A DNA stretch of 64,000 nt, taken from IMG/VR virus record IMGVR_UViG_3300033273_000374, positions 64,001 through 128,000 of that record; one strand, given 5' to 3'. Source of the DNA: a virus (taxonomy: Duplodnaviria > Heunggongvirae > Uroviricota > Caudoviricetes). The position numbers and the translations under genes are program-made. Of the stretch, positions 14,264 through 61,766 are shown in pieces. The stretch's first letter is position 1. Each line of letters begins with the position of its first letter. Under the pieces are notes generated by a model, which was given only the letters and a program-made list of their open reading frames with translations, was not told the DNA's origin and made no database searches.

Positions 14264-14331
14264 GAAGTACAGATCAATCATTATCATTGCACATGCAAGC
14301 CATACTGCTCTGTACATTATTTGTGTGCGAG

Positions 14332-14907: not shown

Positions 14908-14929
14908 TTTCTCTCCTTATTGTTTTATT

Positions 14930-14957
14930 AATATAGCACACAATTAAGGTTTGTCAA
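14930..14957 (-). promoter_or_regulatory. sigma70-like early promoter
   Basis: TTGACA-16 nt-TATATT with extended TGn. Confidence 0.65.
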
Positions 14958-15663: not shown

Positions 15664-15712
15664 TTTTTTTGGGCCTTTGCCTTTTGTAAATTATGTATCT
15701 AATATAACACAC

Positions 15713-17249: not shown

Positions 17250-17260
17250 AGATTGCCCTT

Positions 17261-17701: not shown

Positions 17702-17785
17702 TTGTAACTTCCATCAATGTTGTAGTGTTTAGCATTGTACATGAAACAATTAGTTGCTGTCAATATTCCATATTGTTTGCGTAGT

Positions 17786-18927: not shown

Positions 18928-18934
18928 TGTGCTT

Positions 18935-19797: not shown

Positions 19798-19826
19798 TTC
19801 TTACTCCTATTAAGTGCGTATATTAC

Positions 19827-20339
19827 TTATCTTAAAAATTCTTCAATGTCTAAATCATAGTACATGCTATCAATTTTGTGTACACCTATCAAGTATAACA
19901 CATAACTGGCAACACTTGAACCTCTACCTACGCCCCATACTATGTTGTTTGAGCGCATTGTTTCTACAAAATAACGTAAAAAACACAGCAATGGCATCAT
20001 GTCACGTTCTTGATATAACAACAATTCTTTACCAACTCGTTGCAGTTGTGCATCTGTAGTACACTGCTTTAAGCACCATTCAGCAATATCAAACTGTGCA
20101 TACTCTGCAGGCATGTGCCAATTGTTTTGATTTTGTTTGTGGTAAACTTCAGGTGTACAATCCAGTGTTGTGCTTGTGCTCAATTGCAGATCAATGTGCA
20201 TCTCATAACAAGCACGGTTAAACTTTTCAACGTTGTCTAGTGTTAGGTTACTGACGTCTAAGCTAGGGTTACAGTACAACATTTGTACTGCATCTTGTTC
20301 AGTTAGTAACTGTCTGCTGTATTGGTCAAGATTCATCAT
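19827..20339 (-). CDS. dnaE: Stand-alone fragment of DNA polymerase III alpha
   Basis: WGVGRGSSVASYVLYLIGVHKID...EFLR matches DnaE GxGRGSxAGSLVxYxLGIT..DP....FERFL. Confidence 0.8.
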   Translation of the reverse strand: MMNLDQYSRQLLTEQDAVQMLYCNPSLDVSNLTLDNVEKFNRACYEMHIDLQLSTSTTLDCTPEVYHKQNQNNWHMPAEYAQFDIAEWCLKQCTTDAQLQRVGKELLLYQERDMMPLLCFLRYFVETMRSNNIVWGVGRGSSVASYVLYLIGVHKIDSMYYDLDIEEFLR

Positions 20340-20943
20340 CTTTATCGTTGTCACTTACCAATCTTGGCTTGAATCGTTTAGGTGCTTCGATGGCTTTGTG
20401 TTCGTACACCAAACCTTCTTTGTCCCAATTTTGTGTTTCAAATTTGATACCATTTGGGTGTAGTCTAATAAAGTTTACATTAGATGAGTACCAATAGTCA
20501 ACATATTCTTCTAGATCAGGATTGTCTATCAGTTCACGCAGTGTATCACCAGAGTCAGCAACATCTTCAAATGAGTGTGTGACACCTTGTCCTTGTGTGC
20601 TAGTAACACTCACACGTTCAACGATGAACACACCTTGTACCAGTGCTGTAATCTTTGTGTGTAATGCTATGGCCAACAAATGATCATATGGTTCGTCAGG
20701 TAATGTATGTATCACACCATTCAACCCCATGGCATTTTTGAACTTGCTTACACTGCTGGGCCCTATCAGTATGCTATCCTCAAACACATCTCTGAACACA
20801 ATGTTGATACGTTCGAGTGCAACAGTGTAATTCTTTTGTGTGCTGTTTGCAGGCTGTAGATTAATTTTTACATCAAATGTGTTTGGTAGCAGTTGTGTGT
20901 CAACAACTATACAACAACTGAATCTTTCTTCTATTGTTATCAT
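20326..20943 (-). CDS. Hypothetical phage protein
   Basis: 205 aa, coupled in operon. Confidence 0.65.
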   Translation of the reverse strand: MITIEERFSCCIVVDTQLLPNTFDVKINLQPANSTQKNYTVALERINIVFRDVFEDSILIGPSSVSKFKNAMGLNGVIHTLPDEPYDHLLAIALHTKITALVQGVFIVERVSVTSTQGQGVTHSFEDVADSGDTLRELIDNPDLEEYVDYWYSSNVNFIRLHPNGIKFETQNWDKEGLVYEHKAIEAPKRFKPRLVSDNDKDDES

Positions 20944-21191
20944 GATATGTCTATGCTATCCTTAAATTTGTCGTCGTCGCCATCAGATTGTTCTGCTAGT
21001 TTTTTGAGATGTTCTCTGTCTCGGCGAACTCGTTCTTCTTTCATTTCCTCTAACACCATGCCAACTTGTCTTATCAGTGCTGGATTTCCAAACCTATAAC
21101 TTTGGTTAAGTTTTTTTGTAAGTTCTGTTATTTTGTCTTGTAACTCGCCGTCTGTTAGACTGGTTACATCACCTAACAATGGATGGAACAT
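20940..21191 (-). CDS. Small helical-hairpin protein
   Basis: 83 aa; weak resemblance to uL29. Confidence 0.65.
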   Translation of the reverse strand: MFHPLLGDVTSLTDGELQDKITELTKKLNQSYRFGNPALIRQVGMVLEEMKEERVRRDREHLKKLAEQSDGDDDKFKDSIDIS

Positions 21192-21427
21192 CAGTCATAA
21201 TCTCCTGCTGCTCGTTTGTGACAATATATATCAAAACTTTTCCAGTTTGACCAAACCAGGAACCAACCCAACATACTTAACCACATGTTTGGAGCAAATG
21301 CAAGGTTGATACTTAGCCAAATCAACAGTGCATAGATCATGACAACAACATGATCACGGGCTGTCATTTGTGGTCTAGAGGTCGCCATCTTTTCTGTTTT
21401 CGCTGTAGTAAGCATCAAACTCGCCAC
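21191..21427 (-). CDS. Small two-TM protein (start uncertain)
   Basis: Two hydrophobic segments; overlaps mazG end. Confidence 0.55.
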   Translation of the reverse strand: MASLMLTTAKTEKMATSRPQMTARDHVVVMIYALLIWLSINLAFAPNMWLSMLGWFLVWSNWKSFDIYCHKRAAGDYD

Positions 21428-21779
21428 CTGGATAACGAGCTTTTAGTTTGTTAACATTTTCAGCAATAACGTCATTTGGGTCTAAGTTTAGTGCATGGCA
21501 TCCTTGGATCCAATACCATATGACATCGCCAAGTTCACGCTTCAGGTGAAAGATTGTTTCTTCATTCATAGGTTTGCCTTGGAACAAACACTTTTTTACA
21601 ATTTCACTGAATTCGCCTGTTTCGCTTGCAAGTCCAATACTTGCTGTAAGCAAACGTGGAACTATCACGTGTTTGGATAATTCACGCATACTTGCATCTA
21701 ATGCACTGCTACTTTTGCTTTCGTCACTGGTAACTGCAGTTACAAATTCTGCATATTTTTTAAGATCAATATTGTTCAT
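21375..21779 (-). CDS. mazG: MazG-like NTP pyrophosphohydrolase
   Basis: GLASETGEFSEIVKK, RELGDVIWY, NVNKLKARYP. Confidence 0.9.
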   Translation of the reverse strand: MNNIDLKKYAEFVTAVTSDESKSSSALDASMRELSKHVIVPRLLTASIGLASETGEFSEIVKKCLFQGKPMNEETIFHLKRELGDVIWYWIQGCHALNLDPNDVIAENVNKLKARYPGGEFDAYYSENRKDGDL

Positions 21780-21833
21780 GTTGCACCTTTAATGTTTCAT
21801 ACATTATACGACAGGTAGATACAAAATGCAATA

Positions 21834-22565
21834 TTAATATGCGGAGATTGCTGCTCTTTTCCAAATAACTGTTGAGCCATCGTATGTGCCAGTACAAACA
21901 TAAATGTAATTACTGTCCACAGCAACATTGCCTGCAACATCACCACTTTGTCCTGTGTTTGCAGGTGTGCGTACATCTGCTTTTACACGTGAACGTGTTA
22001 GATCATTTACAGCAACAGTTGTGCCTTGGTCGTCTGTAGTAAATTCAAAAATATAAGTACCAGTTGCATCAAAAGTAATAACTTTGGTTGCAGGTACAAT
22101 ACCTTGTAAACTGTCAGCACCAAGTGTAACAGCGGAAGGCAATGTCAATGTGTGCGATACACTAGCAATTGTTATTTCAAGTCGGATGGTGCCAACTTTT
22201 CCACTGGCTGGAAAGTTGCTAAATGCAAGAGTAATACTGCCACTTGTTGTAACAGTTTGATATGGACCTTCTGCATAGTTAAGAGTAACATTGCCTGATG
22301 TGGTACCTTTGGAAACTCGTGTACCACTCATGTCTTTTAATTCAAAGTCACTTAGTACACTACCACCACCTGAATTATCAAGTGTCTCGCCTGTTAAAGC
22401 ACTCTTTAGTACTGCCTTACTTTGTAGATCCTCGATCTCACTTTTTGCATTAGTGAAGTTGTTTTTGATGTTAGTGAAATTATCTCTAAAACCTTGACTG
22501 TCATTGTCTTGGCCTGCAATAGGATAAGTTCCATCAATATTGTTTGCATTGATATTACTTGCCAT
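21834..22565 (-). CDS. Virion structural protein (tail/baseplate)
   Basis: N-terminal GFRDNFTNIK coiled motif; C-terminal YIYVC...WKR cap shared with 25570-26913. Confidence 0.7.
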   Translation of the reverse strand: MASNINANNIDGTYPIAGQDNDSQGFRDNFTNIKNNFTNAKSEIEDLQSKAVLKSALTGETLDNSGGGSVLSDFELKDMSGTRVSKGTTSGNVTLNYAEGPYQTVTTSGSITLAFSNFPASGKVGTIRLEITIASVSHTLTLPSAVTLGADSLQGIVPATKVITFDATGTYIFEFTTDDQGTTVAVNDLTRSRVKADVRTPANTGQSGDVAGNVAVDSNYIYVCTGTYDGSTVIWKRAAISAY

Positions 22566-25537
22566 TATCTAAATACTCCGACCTGTGGAAACTTAATGTA
22601 TTTATCTTCATCGTCTTGGTACACAAATTTGTCTACACTTGCAAAGAAACGTGTGCTTTTTCCGTCAAAGTAAGTTTCGCCTATTATACTATCTTCAAGA
22701 TCTACTCTTAGATAGTTTGGTGCTGTTCTACCACCGCTTGGACGATTTTCGTAGAAATAGTCACCATTCAAGTATGTTACACGAACTTTCGCACCTAAGT
22801 CAATCTCTGTTTTGAATGTGCATACCAGCACACCGTTAACACTTTTTATATTCCATACACCACCACGTTGGTTTACACTTGCACTTCCTGCAAAGTACTT
22901 TTCAACATAGCCATCAATTGCTGTTGATTCGCTGAACGGTGTTCCGTCTTGGTCATACACATCACCAAAGTTTGCAGTTTCTAAGTTCCAACCATCATTG
23001 GTTTGTGTTGTAGCAGTGCTGCCAGTAAGTCCAGTTTGCTGTAGCCAGATAACATCTATACCATCACCTGCAAATTGGCTTATATCATTTACACCTTCTA
23101 TATAACCTGCTCTAACAATATCGCCTGCAATCTTGTTATTGATAGCATCAAACGCAATACCATCAACTGCAAAATCTACTGTGGCACTTATTCCTGTTGA
23201 TTTGTCAAGTTCACTGATATTAAGTGAATACAAGTCAAATGAGGTTTCTGCTGTTACTGTGTATTTTCCAGTTTCTTTGTTGTAGTATTTGCTAAGGTTG
23301 TTGTCAAGTATGTATCTGTCAACTTCAAAGCTAATGTTCTTAAGATCAATTGCTGTTCTTTGTTCTAGTAAATATTTGATCTTCTTGCTTGTCCCTGGTT
23401 TGCAGTACACAATTGGCACAGCCAGTGTCCAGCCAAGTATGCTGTTATCCTCTTGTTTACTTTGCATCCACTCAGGTAGTACCAAACGTTCAAGGATGAC
23501 TTCACCAATTGCACTTTTTAATCTGGCACGCATATTTTCAATTGCATTTGGATATGCAAGATAATCATTTCCAGAACTTGAACGATAGTTTCCACTATCA
23601 ACTGTGATGTAGTAATCCTCTCCTGCATCAACACTGAGAGGGTTGGTCCAATCATTGCTACTACGCAAGTCTACACGTTGACTTGCAGGTGCAGGTCTAT
23701 CAGTAGTTGGATCTGTTCCAACTGCTTTGTCAACCATTTCAATATACACCAGCTCGTAACGCACAGTGCCATCTGTGTTAAGAGCTCTTGCAGTTTTAAA
23801 ACTACCAAACCTTAACACATTGTTCCAATGATTTTGTGCAGCAGCTTCTACATAATCAGTTTCTGGTTTTGGATTCAATCCAGATGCTACTAGCATACGC
23901 ATATCTTTTTGTAGTCCAAAATTGAAGTCTGTGGGTCTATAGATATCTCGTTGTGGAATATCATCTGCGTTATAAATTAGACTATCGTATATTTCTCTTT
24001 GTGTCTGGTTAGGTAGTGCTTTAACATATAAACTTTCGTATGGTTTGATGCTGCTTGGTGTAACCTTTATAGTAAATGTTTCAAACGTGTCAATGGTTAA
24101 ATCTGAACTGAAGGCCCTTACTGTAAATGTGTAAGTTCTTTCCCAAACAGTTTCGTTATAGAATAGTGTTTCAACATCAAATGTGGTAGTGCCTGTATCA
24201 AACATCATTGTTTCAAAACTAACACGGCCTATAATCAAACCACTGCTATCTAGTGTAAGCCCTTGTGGCAAGGCTTGTGCATAACCTGCTTTAAGTTCAT
24301 ATTGTACACTTGCTCCACTACCAATTGTTGCTTTTACATCAAGTTCACTAACACTACCTGTTTCTATGGTTCCTAGGTCAGTGTTAGGCCAGGTAATTGT
24401 TTTGTCAACATCACCTTCAACTTTCATTGTAAAGTAAACCCAATCGCTTACACGATCCGTAGCATTCTTTTTCTTACAACGCACTGCCCAGTCATATTCT
24501 ACTGTAGTTGGAGTTAAACTTGGCAATGTTCCATAAAACCAGCCTGTGTCTGTGTCTAATACAAGTCCTGGAGGTGCATTGTACCCACTACCGCCATAGT
24601 CTACTGTATCAAATCCAACTCCATCTGCATCAAAACCTGATCCAACGTCGCTGGTAAGTTCAAAAACTATAGGATCATTGTCTAGATCTAATCCTTTGAA
24701 TTGGAATGCAAAATAGTTGTCGTGTTTGAATGTTCCAAGATCTTGTGATGGAGTTGTCATAAACGGATCACGCTGTGGAGTTTGATCTGCAGTTAATAGA
24801 ACATTAAGTTCACTGTCTGCTGCAAAGTTACTGGCTGAATCTGCTGTAAATACTTCATTATCAGCAGTAAGCAAGTTTCTACTGACCACAAACATTGTAT
24901 AAGTTCGTTGGTCAATTCTAAATCCATCACTTACTTGTGCAGTAAATTCATAGTTTTTGCTTACACTGCGAGTAGCAAAATCCCAAGCAGTTGTATCAAA
25001 CGCTTCTGCATCAAATCCTGGTGTGCTATTATCAGCAAGTTCTGGCAGTATATATCCACTGATTAATCCGCTTGTGCTTAATGTCAGGCCTGGTGGAAAA
25101 TTACCACCCACAATACTCCATGTAAGGTTTTGTCCTGGGTCTTCATCTGTAGCAGTGAGTTGTATGTTTATTATGCTTCCATCAAATACTGCACCTAATG
25201 CACTGGCAGGAAGTGTATCTATCACAGGATCATCTGGACCTGTAACAGTAATACTAAACACACGATCAGCAACTTGTCCGTCAACGCTGGTTGCTCTTAC
25301 TGTGAATTGATTAAATGTGTCTACAGCAACCTCTTGTGGAACACCTTGTATGTAGTCTGTGTTACTAGGATAGCCTTCTACTGATCCATCTGTTCTAATA
25401 ACAATACCATCAGGTAATCTACCACTATGGAACTTGTAGTTGGTTGCGTTTTCTGCACCCAGTTGTAGTTGGTAAAATTCACCTTCTACAATTGTCCCTA
25501 GGTCACCAGGTGGTGTTATCCACGATGGAGCGGCCAT
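22565..25537 (-). CDS. Large baseplate-wedge-like protein with Ig-like repeats
   Basis: 990 aa; repeated PPGLTLSTSGLISG-type Ig units and FD motifs; inside structural block after a late promoter. Confidence 0.7.
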   Translation of the reverse strand: MAAPSWITPPGDLGTIVEGEFYQLQLGAENATNYKFHSGRLPDGIVIRTDGSVEGYPSNTDYIQGVPQEVAVDTFNQFTVRATSVDGQVADRVFSITVTGPDDPVIDTLPASALGAVFDGSIINIQLTATDEDPGQNLTWSIVGGNFPPGLTLSTSGLISGYILPELADNSTPGFDAEAFDTTAWDFATRSVSKNYEFTAQVSDGFRIDQRTYTMFVVSRNLLTADNEVFTADSASNFAADSELNVLLTADQTPQRDPFMTTPSQDLGTFKHDNYFAFQFKGLDLDNDPIVFELTSDVGSGFDADGVGFDTVDYGGSGYNAPPGLVLDTDTGWFYGTLPSLTPTTVEYDWAVRCKKKNATDRVSDWVYFTMKVEGDVDKTITWPNTDLGTIETGSVSELDVKATIGSGASVQYELKAGYAQALPQGLTLDSSGLIIGRVSFETMMFDTGTTTFDVETLFYNETVWERTYTFTVRAFSSDLTIDTFETFTIKVTPSSIKPYESLYVKALPNQTQREIYDSLIYNADDIPQRDIYRPTDFNFGLQKDMRMLVASGLNPKPETDYVEAAAQNHWNNVLRFGSFKTARALNTDGTVRYELVYIEMVDKAVGTDPTTDRPAPASQRVDLRSSNDWTNPLSVDAGEDYYITVDSGNYRSSSGNDYLAYPNAIENMRARLKSAIGEVILERLVLPEWMQSKQEDNSILGWTLAVPIVYCKPGTSKKIKYLLEQRTAIDLKNISFEVDRYILDNNLSKYYNKETGKYTVTAETSFDLYSLNISELDKSTGISATVDFAVDGIAFDAINNKIAGDIVRAGYIEGVNDISQFAGDGIDVIWLQQTGLTGSTATTQTNDGWNLETANFGDVYDQDGTPFSESTAIDGYVEKYFAGSASVNQRGGVWNIKSVNGVLVCTFKTEIDLGAKVRVTYLNGDYFYENRPSGGRTAPNYLRVDLEDSIIGETYFDGKSTRFFASVDKFVYQDDEDKYIKFPQVGVFR

Positions 25538-25569
25538 TTAAATACTCCTCTTTGTAGTATTTATCGCTC

Positions 25570-26913
25570 TTACCAAGTTGCGATTGCTACACGCTTCCAT
25601 ACACTTGTGGCACCATCATAGTCTGCAGTGCAATAATAAATGTAACTAGAGTCAAAAGCAACATCACCTTGCTGATCGCCTGCAGCACCTATTGCACTTG
25701 CTGGTGTATATGTGTTTTCAACTCGTAATCTATCCCCTGAAACAACAACTTTGCCTGTACCTGCAGGATTTAGAATGATGTCTTCGTTGGTGCTAAGTGA
25801 TGAAATATTGTTATCTTCTAATCTTAAGCCGCTGGTTTCTAATTTGTCACCAGTTACTGTAGCAGTTGTGATGATCGTACTAGTAGCACTAATTGAAGTA
25901 GTGGTTAGTCCACCGTTAAACGCTGGAGCAGTTGTTGTGCTTGCTCCTCTACCTAATACACTGTCAATTGTGCTGGTGTTTGCAATAGTAAGCACATCAG
26001 CAGTGATGCTGGTGGTTATATCTGCTCCGCCAACAACACCTAATATTTCACCATTTTCAATAACATGAGCAGTGCTTGTATCATCAACTAGTGTTAGACT
26101 GTAGGTGTTTGAACTAATTTGTGTGTCAACATAGCCTTTGGTTGCTGCATCTTGAGTGTTGCTTGGATCACTGACATTAATAAGCAAATTACTATTGAAG
26201 TCAATGTTGCCTGCAGGATCAATCACAATGTTGCCGCTAGTGGTGCTGATAGTGTCAGCATCACCTATTGTGATGTTACCTCCTAGTGTGATGTTGCCTG
26301 TTACATCTACGTTACCACTAAAAGTACCATCTCTAGCACTAATATCTCTTGCATACAAATCACGCCATTTGAGTGTGGTACTACCTAGGTCGTTGTTTTG
26401 TGTAACACTAGGAACAATGCTGCTATCAACTCTACCAACAAAGGTAATAGTGTCTGCGCTACTATCACCTAAATCAACACTGCCGTTTGCTGTTAACAAT
26501 CCACCAATGGTAACAGCATTGGTTACTGTTAAATCACTAACAGTTGTGCTGCCTATAGTGATTGCACCAAACGTAGCAGCACCTGTTACAGACAGTGTGC
26601 CACCTATTTGTGCGTTGGCGTCTACTTGTAGATTGTTGCTACGGCTCTGGCCTGTGACAACAAGTGCGCCTCTGATCAGTGTATCAGCACTGATATCAAC
26701 TTCACCTGCACCACTTGGACTTAGCACAATGTCTTGGTTAGTGGTTTCTGTGCTGATTACATTTGCATTGAAACTTAAACTGCTTAGACTACTGCCACCA
26801 AGTTCGTTGTAGATTTCAGTAAAGTTTTCATTAACTTTATTGAAAGCGACCCTAAGGAGATCACCGGTGCCATCGTCTTGGTTAGTGCCAATGTTGATAG
26901 TTTGCTTAGCCAC
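25570..26913 (-). CDS. Baseplate/tail-fibre protein, T4 gp9/gp10-like N-terminus
   Basis: GTG start; MAKQTINIG..DDGTGD.LR.AF.KVN.NF.EIY. Confidence 0.78.
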   Translation of the reverse strand: MAKQTINIGTNQDDGTGDLLRVAFNKVNENFTEIYNELGGSSLSSLSFNANVISTETTNQDIVLSPSGAGEVDISADTLIRGALVVTGQSRSNNLQVDANAQIGGTLSVTGAATFGAITIGSTTVSDLTVTNAVTIGGLLTANGSVDLGDSSADTITFVGRVDSSIVPSVTQNNDLGSTTLKWRDLYARDISARDGTFSGNVDVTGNITLGGNITIGDADTISTTSGNIVIDPAGNIDFNSNLLINVSDPSNTQDAATKGYVDTQISSNTYSLTLVDDTSTAHVIENGEILGVVGGADITTSITADVLTIANTSTIDSVLGRGASTTTAPAFNGGLTTTSISATSTIITTATVTGDKLETSGLRLEDNNISSLSTNEDIILNPAGTGKVVVSGDRLRVENTYTPASAIGAAGDQQGDVAFDSSYIYYCTADYDGATSVWKRVAIATW

Positions 26914-26924
26914 TGTAACTCTCC

Positions 26925-27494
26925 TTATGCGTTAGCGTAGTAAGGAATTACATACACACTGCCATCAATCTTTACTTTCATATACCCTGTTGGAGTTGCT
27001 GGTAGAGCATTTGCACCACCTGCTGCGCCTACAGTTGTTTGTGTAGATACATTGAAGTTAACTACACCAGTGCCACTTGGATCAAGTGTAATGTCTTGGT
27101 TACTGTTTGCTGTGCCAATTGTGCCAGCATGTATTGTAACATCTTCTGCTTGGAATGTTGAAGTAGTAGCATTCCAACTTAGTTTGCTGCTAAACTGGAT
27201 GTCACCGTCTGCATCGCTGTAAGCGATACCATTGTCTACATGATCAGTAAAACGTAGTTCAGCCGCAGTTGCAATAACAACTTTGCCTGTGCCGTTTGGA
27301 TCAAGTATGATGTTTCCGTTTGTGTTTTCACTGATTAAACTGTTGCCACTGATAGCAACATTGTTCCCGCTGCCTGCCGCAGAAACGCTGTACAACTCAG
27401 TGAAGTTGTCGTTAATTTTATCAAAAGCGGTACGAAGCGGATCGCCTGTACCGTCATTGGCGGCAGAACCAATGTTAATAGTTTGTTTTGCCAT
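26925..27494 (-). CDS. Baseplate/tail-fibre protein, gp9/gp10-like N-terminus
   Basis: MAKQTINIGSAANDGTGDPLRTAFDKINDNFTELY; perfect TATAAATA at 27518-27525. Confidence 0.78.
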   Translation of the reverse strand: MAKQTINIGSAANDGTGDPLRTAFDKINDNFTELYSVSAAGSGNNVAISGNSLISENTNGNIILDPNGTGKVVIATAAELRFTDHVDNGIAYSDADGDIQFSSKLSWNATTSTFQAEDVTIHAGTIGTANSNQDITLDPSGTGVVNFNVSTQTTVGAAGGANALPATPTGYMKVKIDGSVYVIPYYANA

Positions 27495-27560
27495 TTGAAT
27501 ATCTCCTTAGGACTGTGTATTTATAGAACTTTTTTACTTAGCCTTGTGCTAAATATTTTT

Positions 27561-27824
27561 ATGATTTTGGATACCTCTAAGTTGCAAACTGTTTATTGGC
27601 GCAAACGCAATGGTAAAATGCACCAATGCTCAACCACTAAAACTGTATATCACATACGTTGTGATAGTTGTGAACAAGAGTTTACTAGAACAAGCAAGCA
27701 ATTGAATAAGAAAAGTGGTACTCATGTTTGTAGCAATTGCAATCAAAAAAGATTTGCTCAAACACAAAGCGCCACTTGGAAACGTTATAACAAACTTGAT
27801 GCTAGTGCAGGATATAAGTTGTGA
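27561..27824 (+). CDS. Zn-ribbon protein
   Basis: CDSC...CSNC; start at ATG 27561. Confidence 0.65.
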   Translation: MILDTSKLQTVYWRKRNGKMHQCSTTKTVYHIRCDSCEQEFTRTSKQLNKKSGTHVCSNCNQKRFAQTQSATWKRYNKLDASAGYKL

Positions 27825-28130
27825 TTAGACTGCAAAACTTTCGCCACATCCACAACTAGATGCAGCATTTGGATTAATAACTTTTAGATATGAACCACCT
27901 AGTTCTGTAACGTAGTCTATGGTGCATCCTACCACAAACAATTCTGCCATTGGGTCAAGCACTAACACATCTTCATATGGCTCGCTCCAATTAACATCTG
28001 GCAGGTTCTTTTTAAAATCCCACACATAGGTAAAGCCGGAACAGCCACCACCCGACACTCCAAGTGTAACGTAATCGCCGTTCCGCACTTTATCTAGGTA
28101 TTTCTTTGCTTCTTCAGTTACGGTTATCAT
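27825..28130 (-). CDS. iscA: HesB/IscA-family Fe-S cluster carrier protein
   Basis: GGGCSGFTY and CGCGESF; start ATG 28130. Confidence 0.93.
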   Translation of the reverse strand: MITVTEEAKKYLDKVRNGDYVTLGVSGGGCSGFTYVWDFKKNLPDVNWSEPYEDVLVLDPMAELFVVGCTIDYVTELGGSYLKVINPNAASSCGCGESFAV

Positions 28131-28180
28131 GTTGACCCTCTTATACTTGTCTTGGCCCACTGTGTGTACTGTATTTATGG

Positions 28181-28256
28181 TGGTGACCCCTACGGGACTC
28201 GAACCCGTGTTTCTGCCGTGAAAGGGCAGCGTCCTAGACCGCTAGACGAAGGGGCC
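28181..28256 (-). tRNA. trnE: tRNA-Glu(UUC)
   Basis: Anticodon arm CTGCC-CTTTCAC-GGCAG; encoded CCA. Confidence 0.93.
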
Positions 28257-29624
28257 GGTGATTTCAGGAAGGTAATCCTGCAATTTGATATTTCTATTTA
28301 CGTCTAATTTATTGTTAAATTCAAAAAACATTTTCAATACATTGTAATCAATATCGTTATTTCTAACAGTGTCAAGTATGTGGTTTACACATGTGTTAAA
28401 ATTATGATCAGTTTTGTAACTAGACGTTGACACTAATTTTTCACAGTCTGTGATTACTGCAGTTTTGTTTGGGTGATTTCCAAACCACAAGTATGATGGT
28501 TCATCTACCCAGTTAATTAATACAGTGGCATTTGGATATTGTGTGTTTAAATAGTTAACCAATGGATATAGCCTAGCTACATTGTATATACTTACACTTA
28601 TATTGAAACAAACCACCCATTGACTGTTAAGTGTACGGACGTTTTTGGCTAGTTTATTCCAAGTTATTGGATAGCGTATGTAATACAGTGCATCTGCAAA
28701 TCCATCAACACTTACAATAAACTCAACATTAGTAAAGTGTTTAATTACATCCAAAAACTTTTTAGGTAAAACAAAGGCATTTGTGTTTATCTGCAATAAG
28801 AAATCAGTGCGGTTTTGTTCAATACATTCTTTTAAAAAGTTTATAAATTCATTGCTTATAACAGGCTCGCCTCCTGCAACATACAAACGTTTTACATTTG
28901 GTATATCTACAATTGCAAAATCTGTTGGAGGCGATAGTCCAACAAGAGTGTCTGTTAAGCCTAGGTTGTAAAACTCTTTGTCTAACATATGGCTATCGCC
29001 CGGGCAACAAATTCTGCACTGTGCATTACATCTATTGCCTGTGCGAATATCATAGTCTAACACAGTAGTGTTATCAATAAATTGCTCAACACTGCGAAAA
29101 CCTGTAAGTTCTACCATTTGTTTTGTTCTATGTTGACGTGGACTAGGTAAACTAGCAGTTTCTCGTGTGGTGCAAATTTCACAATGTGCAACAGGATTGC
29201 CTGCAATCATGTCCTGCCTAATACCATTCATTATATCATTGTTGTAGTTAAAACTTTTTGTTGTAAGCAGTTTGTTTTGATAGCAACAAAATCTGTATGC
29301 TTCTCCATCATGGTTTTGCACTAGAGCACCAAATGCTGCACCACAAAAACTTTTGTTTTCTTCAAGGTATTGCATCACAGGGTGCTGGCCTATGCTGGAC
29401 AAAAAAGCAGGATCAGCACTGTCAAGTTCAATCAACTGTGCATCACTTGCTATGTCAAGTAGTTCTTGACTAGTTATATCATAATGACTGGTATGATATA
29501 CACCTGCTTGTATTTTTGTGTGTGCATCGAGCACTCCACAATATTCTAAATTGTGACTATGTGCAATAGTTTGTGCAGAATAACCGGCTTGTTCACTGCC
29601 GTCACCTATACAAATTATTAGCAT
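28242..29624 (-). CDS. Radical SAM protein with SPASM/twitch-like Cys motifs
   Basis: GNRCNAQCRIC, AGGEP, INTNA, SVDG; last 5 codons lie inside tRNA-Glu. Confidence 0.85.
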   Translation of the reverse strand: MLIICIGDGSEQAGYSAQTIAHSHNLEYCGVLDAHTKIQAGVYHTSHYDITSQELLDIASDAQLIELDSADPAFLSSIGQHPVMQYLEENKSFCGAAFGALVQNHDGEAYRFCCYQNKLLTTKSFNYNNDIMNGIRQDMIAGNPVAHCEICTTRETASLPSPRQHRTKQMVELTGFRSVEQFIDNTTVLDYDIRTGNRCNAQCRICCPGDSHMLDKEFYNLGLTDTLVGLSPPTDFAIVDIPNVKRLYVAGGEPVISNEFINFLKECIEQNRTDFLLQINTNAFVLPKKFLDVIKHFTNVEFIVSVDGFADALYYIRYPITWNKLAKNVRTLNSQWVVCFNISVSIYNVARLYPLVNYLNTQYPNATVLINWVDEPSYLWFGNHPNKTAVITDCEKLVSTSSYKTDHNFNTCVNHILDTVRNNDIDYNVLKMFFEFNNKLDVNRNIKLQDYLPEITGPFV

Positions 29625-29738
29625 TTATAGTTCTCCTGGGCACCATCCATTCAATTATTTTACCTGTTAAATGGAAAACAGGATTGTATTTAGTGGAAGT
29701 AAGCGAGATTAACTAACCTCTAGACAAAAGGGCTATTA

Positions 29739-29813
29739 TGGCTCCTCAAGATGGATTCGAACCACCGACCGGATGGTTAACAGCCGTCTGCTCTGCCACT
29801 GAGCTACTGAGGA
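29739..29813 (-). tRNA. trnN: tRNA-Asn(GUU)
   Basis: Loop CTGTTAA; one anticodon-stem mismatch; encoded CCA. Confidence 0.9.
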
Positions 29814-29821
29814 ATAAAACT

Positions 29822-29895
29822 TGGTGGAGAATAGGAGAGTCGAACTCCTGATTCTAGAATGCAAATCTAGCGTGATCCCACTTCACTAATTCCCC
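29822..29895 (-). tRNA. trnA: tRNA-Ala(UGC)
   Basis: Loop TTTGCAT; G3:U70 and A73 identity elements. Confidence 0.92.
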
Positions 29896-29901
29896 ATTGT
29901 G

Positions 29902-30111
29902 TTATGTGTCTAGAGGAAGTTTGCTATGCTCATCAATCAAGGCTATAACTTCATCTAAACTGCCACAGATAATTTTTACACCTGCCCAATCTTCTTCACT
30001 GTTGCGACCACGTGCCTCAACAACGAAACCATTTGTTACACGCCTAACTTCAATGGTTTCATCTACTTTAACAAGGCCTTCTTGTTTAAGGCTGGTTGTG
30101 TTGTGTGACAT
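29902..30111 (-). CDS. Small hypothetical protein within tRNA cluster
   Basis: 69 aa; RBS GGAG; TATAAATA at 30122-30129. Confidence 0.7.
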   Translation of the reverse strand: MSHNTTSLKQEGLVKVDETIEVRRVTNGFVVEARGRNSEEDWAGVKIICGSLDEVIALIDEHSKLPLDT

Positions 30112-30131
30112 TCGTTACTCCTATTTATATG

Positions 30132-30207
30132 TGGCGGGAATGACCGGGCTCGAACCGGCGACCTTTGGCGTGACAGGCCAACGCTCTAACCAATTCAGCA
30201 CACACCC
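30132..30207 (-). tRNA. trnD: tRNA-Asp(GUC), degenerate D-arm/acceptor stem
   Basis: TTGGC-CTGTCAC-GCCAA arm and T-arm intact; acceptor has a T-T mismatch; D-stem irregular. Confidence 0.75.
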
Positions 30208-30215
30208 ACAAATTG

Positions 30216-30293
30216 TGGTCTCGGTGGTAGGATTCGAACCTACGATCTCTTGCTCCCAAAGCAAGCGGATTAACCAGACTTTCCTACACCGAG
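30216..30293 (-). tRNA. trnP: tRNA-Pro(UGG)
   Basis: CTTGC-TTTGGGA-GCAAG; encoded CCA. Confidence 0.93.
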
Positions 30294-30295
30294 TT

Positions 30296-30388
30296 TGGCG
30301 GACAGGGAGGGATTCGAACCCTCGGAACGATTAACCATCGTTCAATGGATTAGCAATCCACCGCCTTCGACCACTCAGCCACCTATCC
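30296..30388 (-). tRNA. trnS: tRNA-Ser(GCU)
   Basis: GTGGA-TTGCTAA-TCCAT; long variable arm; G73. Confidence 0.93.
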
Positions 30389-30394
30389 TTGTTG

Positions 30395-30553
30395 TTAAGC
30401 CTTTGCTAGACTACGCAAAAGTTTATCTACTGCAGCCTGTGCTGTTTTACGATCTACACCTTCTGTGCGTTGTACAAATGCAACTGCTTTTTCAACACTC
30501 AATCGTAATCCGTATAGTGCTTCGTGTGCGGCATAATCAACATCTACGTGCAT
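30395..30553 (-). CDS. 52-aa hypothetical protein (not in ORF track)
   Basis: RBS AGGAGA; MHVDVDYAAHEALYGLRLSVEKAVAFVQR...; own sigma70 promoter. Confidence 0.65.
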   Translation of the reverse strand: MHVDVDYAAHEALYGLRLSVEKAVAFVQRTEGVDRKTAQAAVDKLLRSLAKA

Positions 30554-30579
30554 AACAATCTCCTAATGTTTATTGTATT

Positions 30580-30608
30580 ATAATACAACAGAAAGTAAGA
30601 GATGTCAA
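30580..30608 (-). promoter_or_regulatory. sigma70-like promoter
   Basis: TTGACA-17 nt-TATTAT. Confidence 0.7.
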
Positions 30609-30618
30609 TAGAAAAATT

Positions 30619-30650
30619 TGGTGCCTGTAGAGAGGATCAAACTCTCACTC
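30619..30650 (-). pseudogene. Diverged duplicate of the tRNA-Leu 3' end (T-arm, acceptor strand, CCA)
   Basis: GAGTGAGAGTTTGATCCTCTCTACAGGCACCA versus GAGTGGGAGTTCAATTCTCTCTACGGGCACCA in tRNA-Leu. Confidence 0.75.
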
Positions 30651-30660
30651 AAAGCAAATA

Positions 30661-30745
30661 TGGTGCCCGTAGAGAGAATTGAACTCCCACTCCGTAAGGA
30701 AACGGTACCTAAAACCGTCGCGTCTACCTATTCCGCCATACGGGC
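30661..30745 (-). tRNA. trnL: tRNA-Leu(UAG)
   Basis: ACGGT-TTTAGGT-ACCGT; long variable arm; encoded CCA. Confidence 0.93.
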
Positions 30746-30796
30746 ATGTGTGGTGTGTTTGACCCTAGTATAGTGTGGTTGGCCCTATTAAAATTA

Positions 30797-30873
30797 TGGT
30801 GCTGGTGGAGAGACTCGAACTCCCAACATTCTGATTACAAAACAGACGCTCTACCAATTGGAGCTACACCAGC
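30797..30873 (-). tRNA. trnT: tRNA-Thr(UGU)
   Basis: Loop TTTGTAA; encoded CCA. Confidence 0.9.
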
Positions 30874-54772: not shown

Positions 54773-55129
54773 TTATTCCTCGTTGTCCAGCAACTTTAAA
54801 ACAAAGTCACTAGCATTATATATCGTATTCACGTTTATACTCTTCAAATTGTTAACACTATTATAATAGAAAGTGTTGGGTTTGTCAATAAAAAAACCTG
54901 TAAAAAAGTCATTTTGTTGACAGTCTAATATTATATAGTCTGATTGTGAACCTACGTTACAAGTCCAGGCCACACTGCTTTGGCCAGTTGCCCAGTACAC
55001 AGTCCAAGTTTGTTTGCTTTTTGCAAACAATTCCATCACTAGATCAGCTTCTTTGCTGTCTGCAACAAACAGCACACGTTGTTGGTCAGCAACATACACA
55101 TCTGGCTCTGTGATCAGTATGTTATTCAT
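54773..55129 (-). CDS. Hypothetical protein
   Basis: Start ATG 55129 (MNNILITEP). Confidence 0.65.
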   Translation of the reverse strand: MNNILITEPDVYVADQQRVLFVADSKEADLVMELFAKSKQTWTVYWATGQSSVAWTCNVGSQSDYIILDCQQNDFFTGFFIDKPNTFYYNSVNNLKSINVNTIYNASDFVLKLLDNEE

Positions 55130-55433
55130 TATACAGTTCGGCTCTTTCGTCGTCAGTGAGATCGTCTGGATCAATTTTGCCAGTGGCAACATCACTGCGT
55201 AGTTTTTCTATATAACCATCATTGTCTAGATACACACTGGTTTGCTGTTTGTTTATTTCAAACCATTTGTCGCCATCATACCTAAATATTTTATGCGGCA
55301 ATACATCTACTCTTGTAAACACATCACCTTTGTTTGCGTGGGTAGGAAAGCTGGTTCCAAAGTGTGCATTGGCTGCAATTATATTAGCAGAGTCCTCAAC
55401 AACAGCCGTGTTAGGAGTTAGGACTCGTTGTCT
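55122..55433 (-). CDS. -1-frame C-terminal extension (103 aa) of the 55418-57382 protein
   Basis: Open -1 frame from the A7 run: RQRVLTP...AHFGTSFPTHANKGDVFTRVDVLPHKIFRYDGDKWFE; no ATG/GTG/TTG before 55322. Confidence 0.7.
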   Translation of the reverse strand, partial: RQRVLTPNTAVVEDSANIIAANAHFGTSFPTHANKGDVFTRVDVLPHKIFRYDGDKWFEINKQQTSVYLDNDGYIEKLRSDVATGKIDPDDLTDDERAELYNE

Positions 55434-55439
55434 TTTTTT
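55390..55439 (-). promoter_or_regulatory. -1 ribosomal frameshift signal
   Basis: A AAA AAA (55433-55439), 6-nt spacer, hairpin GAGTCCT-AAC..AACA-CGGC-TGTT-GTT-G-AGGACTC. Confidence 0.7.
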
Positions 55440-57382
55440 GGTTCTGTCTGCTGCACGGCAGCGTCTGCAACTAAATCAGCACCAAAACTGTCTTTTTCTA
55501 CCAGCTGATACTTTTCTGCCATTTTCATAACAACAGCATCGCGACGTTCAATTTCTTTTTCTAACTCGCTAATCTTGTTTAGTAATTCTTCAATGCGTGT
55601 GTGTTGGGCACCTACACCTGCTTCAATTTCATCTATTTTACACTTGTATTGATCACGCTCTGCTTCTGTAGCAACAACTTTATCTATAAGTGTGTCTGAC
55701 TCTTCTTTCATGCTTGCAACAGCAGCCGCTAGTTCATCACGCTCCACAAGTAGTCTATCACGTTCACTGACTATTTCACCGTGCTTGGCAGGATCAACGT
55801 TGGCAAGATTGCCATCCAATAGTTTTTCAATCTCTGCTAGTACCTCATTATGTTTTTGTAGTTCCATTTCTAGTTCCTCTAATCTTGGATCGTTTACCCT
55901 GATAATTTTTTGTTTAGGTTTGTTAAGTCCACGTTCTTGTCTATACCAACTTATGGTCATTGTGCCTGCAAGCACCAGACACACTGCTAATGGATCAAAC
56001 ACTGCAACAATAATCATTATAACCCAACGCACTGCAGTTTCTAATGCATTGCGATCAGCATCTTTGTAAATCAGTTCTGCAATATATTTAACAGGTCCTA
56101 CTTCTGCTTCCAGTGTGCGTTGTGTTGCTTGAAGTTTATATTTTTCATCTACCAACTTGTCTATTTCATTGTTGGCAGTGCGTATGCGCTGTTGCTGTTC
56201 ATCAATGATTGCTTGTGCATCTGCATCCTCACCTACTGTAATTTTACTACGCAATTGTGCAATAAGAGTTTGACTGTTTTGTACCTGCTGATTAGCACTT
56301 TCATTTAGTCTTTTGATTTCTGCTCTTGCATTAATTATGGTTGGCGATTCAGTTGCATTTACTTTTTCAATTTGTGCTAGTATTTCTTTTTTGCGTGTTT
56401 CTATACCAGCAACATCGTCACTGCGTATTTTGTTAATAAGCCCTCTGATGCGATCACGTTCTGTGTTCTGTTGCCCTTCCCATTCAGTGGTGATGCTGGT
56501 CATTTGACTGGCTAATTCACGTAATTTTCTATCATTGCCTTCACGCCATTCGGTGGTCTTCTTTGCAGTGTCAGATCCAAAGATGCCATCGCTCTTGATG
56601 CCTAGTTGTTTTTGGAATTCGCTGATTGCTTGTCTGTTGCCTGCACTTACCAATTGATCTAGTTTTGCAATTTCTGCATTTATCTGATCAACTTGGTTCT
56701 GATATGGTTTTAGTTTAGCAACCAAAGCACTGCGGTCTTTGCCAACTTCTAAAAGTTTGCCTTCATACTCATTGGCTTGTTTTGTTAGTTCAAGTATTTG
56801 TTCGTCTAGTTGTGCTATTTGATCCAAGTAAGGCTGTGCTTTGTTATTATCGTTGGCAGTTGCTTCTTGAATGATTTTGTTTTGTGCTGCAATTAAAGGT
56901 TGGATACGACTGTATGCACTGTCAATTCTGCCTTGTTCTTTGTCTATCTGTGCTTGGATGGTATCGTTGGCATTGCCCTGTGAACTTTCAGCACTTTCAA
57001 TTTTTAGTTCAGCACGTGCAATGTTTGCTTTGTTACGGGCAATTTCACTGTCTATGCGTTCAATCTGACTAGCACCTTCTACGCTGAGTGCAGTTTGTTC
57101 AATGTGTGCTTTTGACAAAAATCCAAACACGCCCATGCTGGTAATAAACATCAACACAATCACAGCCATGGTTAGATAAAATTTGATTATACCAGGTGCT
57201 CGATGCCAGTTTTGGTGTAGCCAAATTGTAGTAAAAATTTTACCTACTTCAAGCACACTGCCCATGAGCACAATAGGCAAAAATGCTGCAGCAAAAATTG
57301 CTACCAGTCCTAGTATACTATAGTAAGCAGCGATAGCACTAATACACAGTGCAACAAGAAGAGTTATAATTCCCAAAAACAT
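55418..57382 (-). CDS. Multi-TM coiled-coil protein with peptidoglycan-binding domain
   Basis: 3 N-terminal TMs, long coiled coils, AISEFQKQLGIKSDGIFGSDT (PG_binding_1-like), late TM VAVFDPLAV. Confidence 0.8.
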   Translation of the reverse strand: MFLGIITLLVALCISAIAAYYSILGLVAIFAAAFLPIVLMGSVLEVGKIFTTIWLHQNWHRAPGIIKFYLTMAVIVLMFITSMGVFGFLSKAHIEQTALSVEGASQIERIDSEIARNKANIARAELKIESAESSQGNANDTIQAQIDKEQGRIDSAYSRIQPLIAAQNKIIQEATANDNNKAQPYLDQIAQLDEQILELTKQANEYEGKLLEVGKDRSALVAKLKPYQNQVDQINAEIAKLDQLVSAGNRQAISEFQKQLGIKSDGIFGSDTAKKTTEWREGNDRKLRELASQMTSITTEWEGQQNTERDRIRGLINKIRSDDVAGIETRKKEILAQIEKVNATESPTIINARAEIKRLNESANQQVQNSQTLIAQLRSKITVGEDADAQAIIDEQQQRIRTANNEIDKLVDEKYKLQATQRTLEAEVGPVKYIAELIYKDADRNALETAVRWVIMIIVAVFDPLAVCLVLAGTMTISWYRQERGLNKPKQKIIRVNDPRLEELEMELQKHNEVLAEIEKLLDGNLANVDPAKHGEIVSERDRLLVERDELAAAVASMKEESDTLIDKVVATEAERDQYKCKIDEIEAGVGAQHTRIEELLNKISELEKEIERRDAVVMKMAEKYQLVEKDSFGADLVADAAVQQTEPKKDNES

Positions 57383-57453
57383 CTGTGTATTATACTACCT
57401 TTTAGACAGGATTGTCAACTAATACTAGATCAAAGAAATACTTTTCACTCATG

Positions 57454-61396: not shown

Positions 61397-61429
61397 ATTT
61401 GAAACTCCTCTAATGGTATTTATAAAGAA

Positions 61430-61452
61430 AAAGCACCCATTAAGGGTGCTTT
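61430..61452 (-). terminator. Intrinsic terminator after tmRNA
   Basis: AAAGCACCC-TTAAT-GGGTGCTTT followed by a T-run. Confidence 0.8.
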
Positions 61453-61453
61453 A

Positions 61454-61716
61454 GGTGCCGGATTCTGTTTCGAGGCTCCGGCGGGCCCAGTGGATTATGC
61501 CGCTAAAGGCATATCCTCATCTGCAAAATTATCGTTTGCGTTTGTTTTGTTTGCTTGATTTACGGTCATCGCCTACCGGTAACTCCACGTTCTCTATTGC
61601 ATCAGTCGATCCCTATCACCCCCTCAAAGCACACTCAGCGAATGTGTTTTAAGTGAATGGTGGAGGTGGGGAGAATTGAACTCCCGTCCTGCCTGCCGTC
61701 AATTGGCTTCAACGTT
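61454..61716 (-). ncRNA. ssrA: Circularly permuted (two-piece) tmRNA
   Basis: Acceptor piece ending GGAGTTCAATTCTCCCCACCTCCACCA (CCA end 61658) precedes coding piece starting GGGGGTG (61623); G3:U70; tag ORF 61539-61495 = ANDNFADEDMPLAA*. Outer ends approximate. Confidence 0.93.
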
Positions 61717-61766
61717 ACAAGTATATTTATAGCAGATAATTACATCTTAGTCAAATAAATATTTTG

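What the first reader, a model, noticed from the sequence alone, without database searches (positions are those of the whole stretch)
55122..57382. Programmed -1 frameshift extends a membrane/peptidoglycan-binding protein
Seen: codons CCA AAA AAA GAC give the heptamer A AAA AAA (55439-55433), four sense codons before the TAA. Six nt later a hairpin begins with a perfect 7-bp GAGTCCT/AGGACTC stem. The -1 frame is open for 103 codons, encodes a domain-like FGTSFP..KGDVF.RVD.LP..F..DG.KW segment, and has no standard start before mid-domain. Established: slippery heptamer plus a 5-9 nt spacer plus stem is the dnaX/IS3-type signal. Inference: two isoforms (654 and about 753 aa) of an envelope-spanning protein at fixed ratio, outside the usual tail-chaperone context.
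Basis: partly seen in the sequence, partly recalled or inferred. Interest (0 to 1): 0.8.

Follow-up and report, generated by a model that had tools for sequence, protein, structure and literature searches.

The report
Conserved -1 frameshift in phage membrane gene
A marine phage gene for a membrane-anchored coiled-coil protein ends in a classic "slippery" A AAA AAA site followed by an RNA stem, kept in dozens of related phages, so a share of ribosomes most likely slip back one base and add a 103-residue end domain that more distant relatives carry in frame.

Summary
Comparison with relatives supports the -1 frameshift reading strongly, but nothing was tested experimentally.

- **Conserved signal:** 77 related loci give 46 distinct junctions. 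All keep A_AAA_AAR in phase, a 0-frame stop 1 or 4 codons later, and a 103-113-codon -1 ORF that opens only 1-21 codons upstream.
- **Nucleotide-level selection:** the codon before Lys-Lys changes (CCA, GTA, GAA, TCA, ACA) but always ends in A.
- **RNA stimulator:** a 9-10 bp bulged stem starts 6-7 nt downstream. It is 99.7% paired in 43 sequences, with compensatory changes at three pairs. A second pairing that would make a pseudoknot is possible.
- **The -1 domain is real coding sequence:** dN/dS is about 0.11, and in 39 of 42 sequences no start codon precedes its conserved FG..FP motif. Distant homologs carry it in frame, and lineages lacking it lack the heptamer.
- **A possible second origin:** another lineage has an in-phase A9 junction at a different position.
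- **The protein:** a phage-specific protein with four transmembrane segments and coiled coils. Its peptidoglycan-binding motif is below threshold, and its function is unknown.

This is a new member of a known kind: a dnaX/IS-type -1 frameshift in a new gene family. The scan had no earlier finding of this on other DNA.

The parts
57389..57418 (-). Perfect sigma-70-type promoter consensus (TTGACA, 18 nt, TATAAT) just upstream of the gene's ATG
   Evidence: Consensus scan, 12/12 matches. This is a pattern match only.
55418..57382 (-). 0-frame ORF of 654 aa. It has three N-terminal hydrophobic helices (about aa 1-92), a long helical region with a PG_binding_1-like motif (aa 248-274), a fourth hydrophobic helix (aa 449-479) and a C-terminal coiled coil.
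   Evidence: Thousands of phage homologs.
55433..55439 (-). Slippery heptamer A_AAA_AAA, read as CC[A AAA AAA] in the 0 frame
   Evidence: Invariant as A_AAA_AAR in 46 distinct junctions (30 AAG, 16 AAA), while the preceding codon varies but always ends in A.
55427..55432 (-). 6-nt spacer GACAAC
   Evidence: The spacer is 6-7 nt across the family.
55417..55426 (-). 5' arm of stem S1 (GAGTCCTAAC). It contains the 0-frame stop TAA at 55420-55418.
   Evidence: RNAalifold consensus and pair counts.
55390..55400 (-). 3' arm of stem S1 (GTT-G-AGGACTC, with G 55397 bulged)
   Evidence: The 9 consensus pairs are 99.7% paired, with compensatory changes at 3 pairs.
55402..55407 (-). Candidate pseudoknot arm S2-5' (GGCTGT) in the S1 loop
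   Evidence: 5 pairs are 98.6% paired and one column covaries (CG 33, UA 7, UG 3). This is a candidate only.
55371..55376 (-). Candidate pseudoknot arm S2-3' (GCAGCC)
   Evidence: Both arms encode Ala codons, so pairing is partly expected by chance.
55122..55439 (-). -1 frame ORF of 105 codons from the heptamer plus a stop. It supplies the last 103 residues of the 753-aa transframe product: a disordered linker of about 22 residues, then a beta-hairpin plus helix domain.
55127..55129 (-). ATG of the next gene, overlapping the -1 ORF stop (ATGAATAA)
   Evidence: The same tight packing is seen in homologous loci.

Best explanation
This is a genuine programmed -1 ribosomal frameshift site of the bacterial A_AAA_AAR type. 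Ribosomes translating the phage membrane/coiled-coil gene place the two lysine tRNAs on AAA AAA. The bulged stem 6 nt downstream, possibly part of an H-type pseudoknot, sits at the mRNA entrance and impedes progress. A share of ribosomes then slip back one base. Non-shifted ribosomes terminate four codons later and give the 654-aa protein. Shifted ribosomes continue for 103 codons and give a 753-aa protein with a disordered linker and a small conserved C-terminal domain. Shown here: the signal, its conservation and covariation, purifying selection on the -1 domain, the lack of an independent start, and in-frame fusion in relatives. Inferred: that slippage is ribosomal, its efficiency, and that the two isoforms act together, for example in mixed oligomers of the coiled coil. 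By the positive-inside rule the long helical region lies in the periplasm and the C-terminal coiled coil plus the extension lie in the cytoplasm. The protein's biological role is unknown.
For: (1) Heptamer: 77 loci give 46 distinct junctions, and all have in-phase A_AAA_AAR. The preceding codon is CCA, GAA, GTA, TCA or ACA. The A run is 6 or 7 long, so the phase is conserved rather than the run length.
(2) Elsewhere in the gene, Lys-Lys is encoded without an in-phase heptamer in 8 of 9 genes.
(3) Stem: RNAalifold finds the same 9-bp bulged stem independently. It is 99.7% paired. Columns 21:55, 22:54 and 27:48 show compensatory changes. Registers slid by 1-3 columns pair in only 30-51% of cells.
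(4) Synonymous divergence is lower over the stem region (dS 0.44-0.51) than in the domain (0.82-1.34).
(5) The -1 domain has dN/dS 0.11-0.12, and the other two frames are full of stops.
(6) The first ATG/GTG/TTG lies after the conserved FG..FP motif in 39 of 42 sequences, and the window clade has no ATG at all.
(7) The same domain is fused in frame to the same N-terminal protein in most of 80 IMG/VR loci and in P0045, P0142 and P0150.
(8) Lineages without the domain (L016, L105, L106) lack the heptamer.
(9) In E. coli, A_AA.A_AA.G is among the most efficient -1 heptamers and V_VV.A_AA.R is an efficient class (PMC4066793).
Against: The window's stem alone is only modestly stable (z = -1.78). 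The compensatory changes are concentrated in a few clades, so the number of independent events is small. No conserved Shine-Dalgarno-like enhancer sits at the dnaX distance. The host and its lysine tRNA set are unknown.
Confidence: 0.85

Rival explanations
1. Programmed transcriptional slippage: RNA polymerase adds one A in the A run, so a share of the mRNAs carry the two frames fused. The ribosome itself does not shift.
For: The window has A7, and homopolymers can cause polymerase slippage. The second lineage (L037-39, L086) has A9, a length at which slippage is plausible.
Against: 27 of 46 junctions have only six A's before the G (CCA AAA AAG). What is conserved is the heptamer phase, not the run length. 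A covarying stem 6-7 nt downstream is the hallmark of ribosomal frameshifting and is not needed for polymerase slippage.
Confidence: 0.06
2. The downstream ORF is a separate small gene, translated by internal initiation or by termination-reinitiation after the 0-frame stop.
For: Gene callers annotate 54-72-aa ORFs there. In the window a GTG at codon 40 could start a 66-aa product.
Against: Such starts cut off the invariant FG..FP..KGD part of the domain. Their positions are not conserved: codons 40, 42, 47, 50, 51, 60. No ATG exists in the window clade. Codons upstream of them are under purifying selection. Relatives have the domain fused in frame. The -1 frame opens just upstream of the heptamer in every case.
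Confidence: 0.04
3. It is a decaying gene or an assembly error: an ancestral fused gene broken by a 1-nt deletion in a homopolymer.
For: Homopolymers are hot spots for indels and for sequencing errors. The ancestral state appears to be fused.
Against: The same -1 arrangement occurs in 77 loci from many independent assemblies, at 50-94% protein identity, and none is fused. The domain has dN/dS about 0.11. The RNA stem covaries.
Confidence: 0.02

Closest known systems
E. coli dnaX (tau/gamma) -1 frameshift signal
   Same: An A_AAA_AAG-type heptamer decoded by lysine tRNA, a stem-loop about 6 nt downstream, and two products from one gene.
   Different: dnaX frameshifting truncates the protein (gamma), whereas here it extends it. 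dnaX has an upstream Shine-Dalgarno-like enhancer about 10 nt before the heptamer, and none is evident here. The genes are unrelated. Rfam found no match to any known frameshift element.
IS3/IS911-family transposase -1 frameshift (OrfA-OrfAB)
   Same: A_AAA_AAG or A_AAA_AAA heptamers with a downstream stem-loop or pseudoknot. The frameshift fuses a second domain onto the first ORF (PMC4066793).
   Different: This is not a mobile-element gene, and the -1 ORF is a 103-codon end domain rather than a catalytic transposase ORF.
Phage C-terminal extension frameshifts (T7 gene 10A/10B capsid, phage A2 major head protein) and the lambda G/GT tail-chaperone frameshift
   Same: A phage -1 frameshift near the end of an ORF yields a minor, C-terminally extended isoform beside the major one. 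This rests on my own knowledge and on the reference list of PMC10885494.
   Different: Those genes are virion or assembly genes in the structural module. This gene encodes a polytopic membrane coiled-coil protein and lies among bS21, Hsp20, ClpS and GMP-reductase genes. In the PRFect training set 2397 of 2476 annotated phage frameshifts were tail assembly chaperones.
DUF2793-like beta-hairpin repeats of phage tail and baseplate proteins
   Same: The first half of the added domain (FG..FP..KGD.F.R.D.LP..F.Y.G..W) recurs 10-13 times in tandem in 900-1250-aa proteins. One example is P0122, which also hits Prophage_tail and DUF2793. Weak structural echoes point to tail-fibre and tailspike adaptor parts.
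   Different: Here it is a single copy followed by helices, at the extreme C-terminus of a membrane protein. There is no significant Pfam hit for the domain itself, and no solved-structure match above Z 4.

Membership tests
Bacterial-type -1 programmed ribosomal frameshift site (dnaX/IS3 kind) | X_XXY_YYZ slippery heptamer in the 0-frame phase that allows both tRNAs to re-pair | tested here: met
   CC[A AAA AAA] at 55439-55433. In-phase A_AAA_AAR in all 46 distinct junctions.
Bacterial-type -1 programmed ribosomal frameshift site (dnaX/IS3 kind) | Downstream stimulatory RNA structure 5-9 nt after the heptamer, conserved | tested here: met
   Spacer of 6-7 nt. A 9-10 bp bulged stem is 99.7% paired, with compensatory changes at 3 pairs, and RNAalifold finds it independently.
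Bacterial-type -1 programmed ribosomal frameshift site (dnaX/IS3 kind) | -1 ORF that overlaps the 0-frame end, lacks its own start, and is under protein-level selection | tested here: met
   The -1 frame opens 1-21 codons upstream. The first start codon lies after the conserved motif in 39 of 42 sequences. dN/dS is about 0.11.
Bacterial-type -1 programmed ribosomal frameshift site (dnaX/IS3 kind) | Upstream Shine-Dalgarno-like enhancer about 10 nt before the heptamer (dnaX-specific, not universal) | tested here: not met
   The upstream 15 nt are purine-rich Glu-Glu-Pro codons (GAAGAGCC). No conserved GGAG/AGGA lies at the dnaX distance, and the window has GCAGACAGAACC.
Bacterial-type -1 programmed ribosomal frameshift site (dnaX/IS3 kind) | Two protein products, with a transframe junction peptide, observed | not testable with these tools
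H-type frameshift pseudoknot | Second stem between the S1 loop and downstream sequence, supported by covariation | tested here: inconclusive
   5 pairs are 98.6% paired. One column has CG 33, UA 7, UG 3, and all 7 UA belong to one clade. Both arms are Ala-Ala codons.
Phage tail assembly chaperone G/GT frameshift | Located between the major tail and tape-measure genes, with chaperone-fold products | tested here: not met
   The neighbours are bS21, Hsp20, ClpS, IMPDH/GMP reductase and 2OG-Fe(II) oxygenase genes. The product is a 4-TM coiled-coil protein.
Pfam PF01471 PG_binding_1 (peptidoglycan-binding domain) | Score at or above the Pfam gathering cut-off over the three-helix domain | tested here: not met
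   20.7 bits against a cut-off of 23. Only profile positions 29-55 of 57 match (aa 248-274). Weak supporting hits come from an endolysin PHROG and SleB. The motif is degenerate in the 589-591-aa clade.
Pfam PF14362 DUF4407 (TM plus coiled-coil proteins) | Score at or above the gathering cut-off | tested here: not met
   Only a fused homolog (L002) gives 24.8 bits against a cut-off of 31.3. The window protein gives no hit.

The most novel reading that the evidence does not exclude
A phage-specific family of inner-membrane coiled-coil proteins has switched at least twice, independently, from an in-frame C-terminal domain to delivery of that domain by -1 frameshifting. One switch is at the C-terminal A_AAA_AAR site seen here, and the other is at an A9 site in a different lineage. 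This would imply strong selection for a sub-stoichiometric 'capped' subunit within an oligomeric membrane scaffold, a dosage logic known so far mainly for virion and tail-assembly proteins. The added domain is related to tail-fibre repeat units and could tether phage particles or assembly intermediates to the membrane.
Probability: 0.25. Interest if true: 0.7.

Novelty: new member of a known kind. Interest (0 to 1): 0.55.

Why it matters
Most annotated phage frameshifts are in tail assembly chaperones. This one is a well-supported, evolutionarily conserved -1 site in a different kind of gene, a polytopic membrane/coiled-coil protein of large marine phages. Gene callers currently split it into a 654-aa protein plus a spurious 54-72-aa ORF. 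The case provides:
- a correction to annotation for thousands of metagenomic homologs;
- a natural series of stem variants with compensatory changes, and a candidate pseudoknot, for studying A_AAA_AAR frameshift stimulation in non-model marine hosts;
- an evolutionary series (fused, frameshifted, domain absent) that can test why a fixed minority of extended subunits is selected;
- a lead into the function of an abundant, uncharacterised phage membrane protein family that also occurs in Pelagibacter phage Mosig and several jumbo phages.

Tried and rejected
- **Phage collection searches:** blastn of the locus and tblastn of the -1 domain against the phage collection gave no match. Only the N-terminal TM block of the 654-aa protein finds cultured phages, all annotated as hypothetical proteins.
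- **Family and atlas searches:** Pfam, NCBIfam and the protein atlas gave no named family for the -1 domain. A profile search of PDB sequences found nothing.
- **Fold searches of the C-domain model (pLDDT 68.6):** Foldseek against PDB gave nothing at E <= 0.001. VIA-align wide gave a best Z of 3.9 (collagen XVIII trimerization domain, phage tailspike parts), too weak to assign a fold. BFVD found only an uncharacterised fused homolog and weak tail-fibre hits.
- **Full-length model (pTM 0.32):** it gives only generic coiled-coil matches (Rad50, MukB) with TM about 0.1, which are meaningless.
- **Complex prediction:** run with three copies of the C-domain, it returned no verdict (score 0.00) and is not used as evidence.
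- **Rfam:** no known frameshift element or other family at the junction.
- **Intrinsic terminator reading of the stem:** rejected, because no T run follows it.
- **Alternative local hairpin:** CCGC(N4)GCGG, seen in some relatives, was rejected as the conserved element because it is absent from the window clade.
- **Shine-Dalgarno-like enhancer:** not evident.
Full report
**1. The observation**

On the minus strand a 654-aa ORF (57382..55418) ends CCA AAA AAA GAC AAC GAG TCC TAA. The seven A's occupy 55439-55433 and lie in X_XXY_YYZ phase. The 0-frame stop is 55420-55418.

After a 6-nt spacer, GAGTCCT (55426-55420) pairs with AGGACTC (55396-55390). The helix continues as AAC/GTT across a bulged G at 55397.

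The -1 frame has a stop 12 codons upstream of the heptamer. It then stays open to the TAA at 55124-55122. The transframe product would be 650 + 103 = 753 aa with the junction ..EPKK|RQRVL...

Taken alone, the stem is not exceptional: -12.2 kcal/mol, z = -1.78. The case therefore rests on comparison with relatives.

**2. Relatives keep the gene split at exactly this place**

A protein search returned thousands of homologs. Close and mid-distance ones (50-94% identity; 589-661 aa) almost all end in x-K-K-D/E, followed directly by the stop or by N-E-S and then the stop.

DNA for these proteins was fetched through encoding contigs. A pattern scan of metagenome contigs added more, and one of viral contigs a few. 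Together they gave 77 loci with 46 distinct junction sequences.

All 46 junctions share these features:
- in-phase A_AAA_AAR (30 AAG, 16 AAA);
- a 0-frame stop 1 codon (39 junctions) or 4 codons (7 junctions) after the heptamer;
- a -1 frame that opens only 1-21 codons upstream;
- a -1 ORF of 103-113 codons wherever the contig covers it.

None of the 77 loci has the two frames fused.

The residue before Lys-Lys changes: Pro CCA, Glu GAA, Val GTA, Ser TCA, Thr ACA. Its codon nevertheless always ends in A, so selection acts on the nucleotide heptamer and not on the peptide. The A run is 6 or 7 long, so the phase is conserved rather than the run length.

Elsewhere in nine of these genes Lys-Lys is written as AAG AAG or AAG AAA, or follows a codon ending in C, T or G. 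Eight of the nine genes have no other in-phase heptamer.

**3. The RNA structure**

I aligned 38 and then 43 distinct junctions. RNAalifold predicted, on its own, a 9-bp stem with a one-base bulge starting 7 nt after the heptamer. In the window one more pair brings the spacer to 6 nt.

Pair counts:
- 99.7% of cells are paired.
- Column 21:55 has GC 33, AU 7, GU 3.
- Column 22:54 has GC 25, AU 14, GU 4.
- Column 27:48 has UA 36, AU 7.
- Sliding the 3' arm by 1-3 columns drops pairing to 30-51%.
- No shuffle reached the observed covariation score.

The caveat is that the changes cluster in a few clades, so the number of independent events is small.

The loop can also pair with a GC-rich hexamer about 14 nt beyond the stem. 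In the window this is GGCTG(T) at 55407-55402 with (G)CAGCC at 55376-55371. That would make an H-type pseudoknot. These pairs are 98.6% paired, with one covarying column (CG 33, UA 7, UG 3). Both arms encode Ala-Ala, and all 7 UA cases belong to one clade, so I call this a candidate only.

Synonymous divergence over the linker codons that carry the stem is about half that of the domain: dS 0.44-0.51 against 0.82-1.34. That is the expected signature of an overlapping RNA element. Rfam has no matching family.

**4. The -1 ORF is a real protein domain without its own start**

- Domain codons 23-100 have dN/dS of 0.11-0.12, and the other two frames carry 5-10 stops.
- The invariant motif FG..FP....KGD.F.RVD.LP begins at codon 26-27.
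- The first ATG/GTG/TTG lies after that motif in 39 of 42 sequences, usually at codon 40-60. Its position is not conserved, and the window clade has no ATG at all.
- The 54-72-aa ORFs that gene callers place here would lack the most conserved part of the domain.
- The ORF is tightly packed: its stop overlaps the next gene's ATG, as ATGAATAA.

**5. Fused, frameshifted and absent states**

The same domain sits in frame at the C-terminus of the same protein family in most of 80 IMG/VR loci. The family is recognisable by its highly conserved N-terminal transmembrane block. The domain is also in frame in P0045, P0142 and P0150.

A profile of the domain finds 909 cluster representatives, nearly always with the match at the extreme C-terminus.

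Two lineages that lack the domain (L016; L105 and L106) also lack the heptamer, and there the next gene follows at once.

A quick tree was built on the conserved TM blocks. It uses SH-aLRT support only and is midpoint rooted.
- The frameshift clade and the two domain-less lineages group together (support 94).
- That group lies next to a fused clade.
- A second frameshift-like lineage (L037-39, L086; four metagenomes) is nested, with support 99, inside an otherwise fused clade.

That second lineage has GTA AAA AAA AAG, an in-phase heptamer within an A9 run, at a different position in the linker. The simplest reading is that the fused state is ancestral and recoding arose at least twice. The direction depends on the root, which was not tested.

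**6. Mechanism**

The best explanation is -1 ribosomal frameshifting by tandem slippage of lysine tRNAs on A_AAA_AAR, stimulated by the downstream stem or pseudoknot. This heptamer class is among the most efficient in E. coli (PMC4066793).

I considered and rejected three alternatives:
- **Transcriptional slippage** is unlikely, because most relatives have only six A's and the conserved features are the phase and a downstream RNA structure.
- **Independent initiation** is contradicted by the start-codon data and the in-frame fusions.
- **Error or decay** is contradicted by 77 concordant loci and by purifying selection.

Efficiency, and hence the isoform ratio, cannot be estimated here.

**7. 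The protein**

Hydrophobicity gives helices at about aa 1-51 (two spans), 62-92 and 449-479. The basic stretches after helix 2 and after helix 4 (RQERGLNKPKQK) suggest a topology by the positive-inside rule. Residues 93-448 would be periplasmic, and the C-terminal coiled coil plus the frameshift extension would be cytoplasmic. This is inference.

AlphaFold predicts an all-helical protein with pTM 0.32. Structural matches are generic coiled coils.

The peptidoglycan-binding motif is partial and below the Pfam cut-off. Weak endolysin and SleB echoes agree with it.

The added segment is a disordered linker of about 22 residues, followed by four short strands and three helices, with pLDDT 68.6. 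No solved fold matches convincingly.

The first half of the domain recurs as a 10-13-fold tandem repeat in tail or baseplate-like proteins. Weak structural hits point to fibre and tailspike adaptor parts. This suggests an oligomerisation or partner-binding module.

Homologs of the TM block occur in Pelagibacter phage Mosig, next to a putative glucosaminidase, and in several jumbo phages. All are annotated as hypothetical. The function remains unknown.

**8. Context**

The window is bases 64001-128000 of a 202,913-base IMG/VR virus record, estimated 57% complete. A perfect sigma-70 consensus promoter precedes the gene. Downstream neighbours, conserved in synteny, are a small ORF, bS21, Hsp20, ClpS and an IMPDH/GMP-reductase family gene.

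**9. Verdict**

This is a new member of a known kind: a classical bacterial-type -1 frameshift signal in a new, abundant phage gene family, with unusually good comparative support and a possible second independent origin in the same family. Interest is moderate to high for recoding and phage-annotation specialists. It is not a new mechanism.

Noticed in passing
L037:2265-2273, L038, L039 and L086:2238-2246 (IMG/VR contigs): A second lineage of the same protein family has GTA AAA AAA AAG (an A9 run with an in-phase A_AAA_AAG) in the linker, with the C-terminal domain in the -1 frame and a roughly 76-codon low-complexity 0-frame tail. It is nested inside a fused clade. It could be an independent frameshift or a transcriptional-slippage site.
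   Followed up: partly
L066:1383-1769: One IMG/VR locus has the C-domain ORF overlapping the end of a 395-aa upstream ORF in the other (+1-type) frame relation, with several ATGs at its start. It may be a separate gene or a different recoding event.
   Followed up: no
window 57389-57418 (-) and 54860-54888 (-): Two perfect sigma-70 consensus promoters (TTGACA, 17-18 nt, TATAAT) lie upstream of the frameshift gene and of the bS21 gene. This suggests early, host-polymerase transcription.
   Followed up: no
window 55122-55129 (-): The stop of the -1 ORF overlaps the ATG of the next gene (ATGAATAA), so the downstream gene could be translationally coupled to the frameshifted ribosomes only.
   Followed up: no
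P0122 (906 aa), P0123, P0126, P0140, P0219: The roughly 40-aa beta-hairpin unit of the added domain occurs as 8-13 tandem repeats in large proteins. P0122 combines it with Prophage_tail and DUF2793 hits, so it is probably a tail or baseplate fibre.
   Followed up: partly
L175 (Pelagibacter phage Mosig EXVC030M, MT647606.1 115144-116124): A 326-aa homolog of the TM blocks (Mosig_00157, 51% identity) lies directly after a putative glucosaminidase and about 1.7 kb before a GH108 lysozyme-like gene. This hints at a cell-wall or lysis-related role for the family.
   Followed up: partly
window 61404-61752 (-) and 14190-30873: ARAGORN finds a permuted tmRNA (tag ANDNFADEDMPLAA) and nine tRNA genes in the window. 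None is a lysine tRNA.
   Followed up: no
P0042, P0043, P0085, P0092 (708-789 aa homologs): A sister group replaces the C-terminal coiled coil and domain with an acidic low-complexity linker and a different C-terminal module (..GRWPN.P......V.D.L......EL..LLE.AD..TL..VY..). The C-terminus of this family is therefore modular.
   Followed up: no
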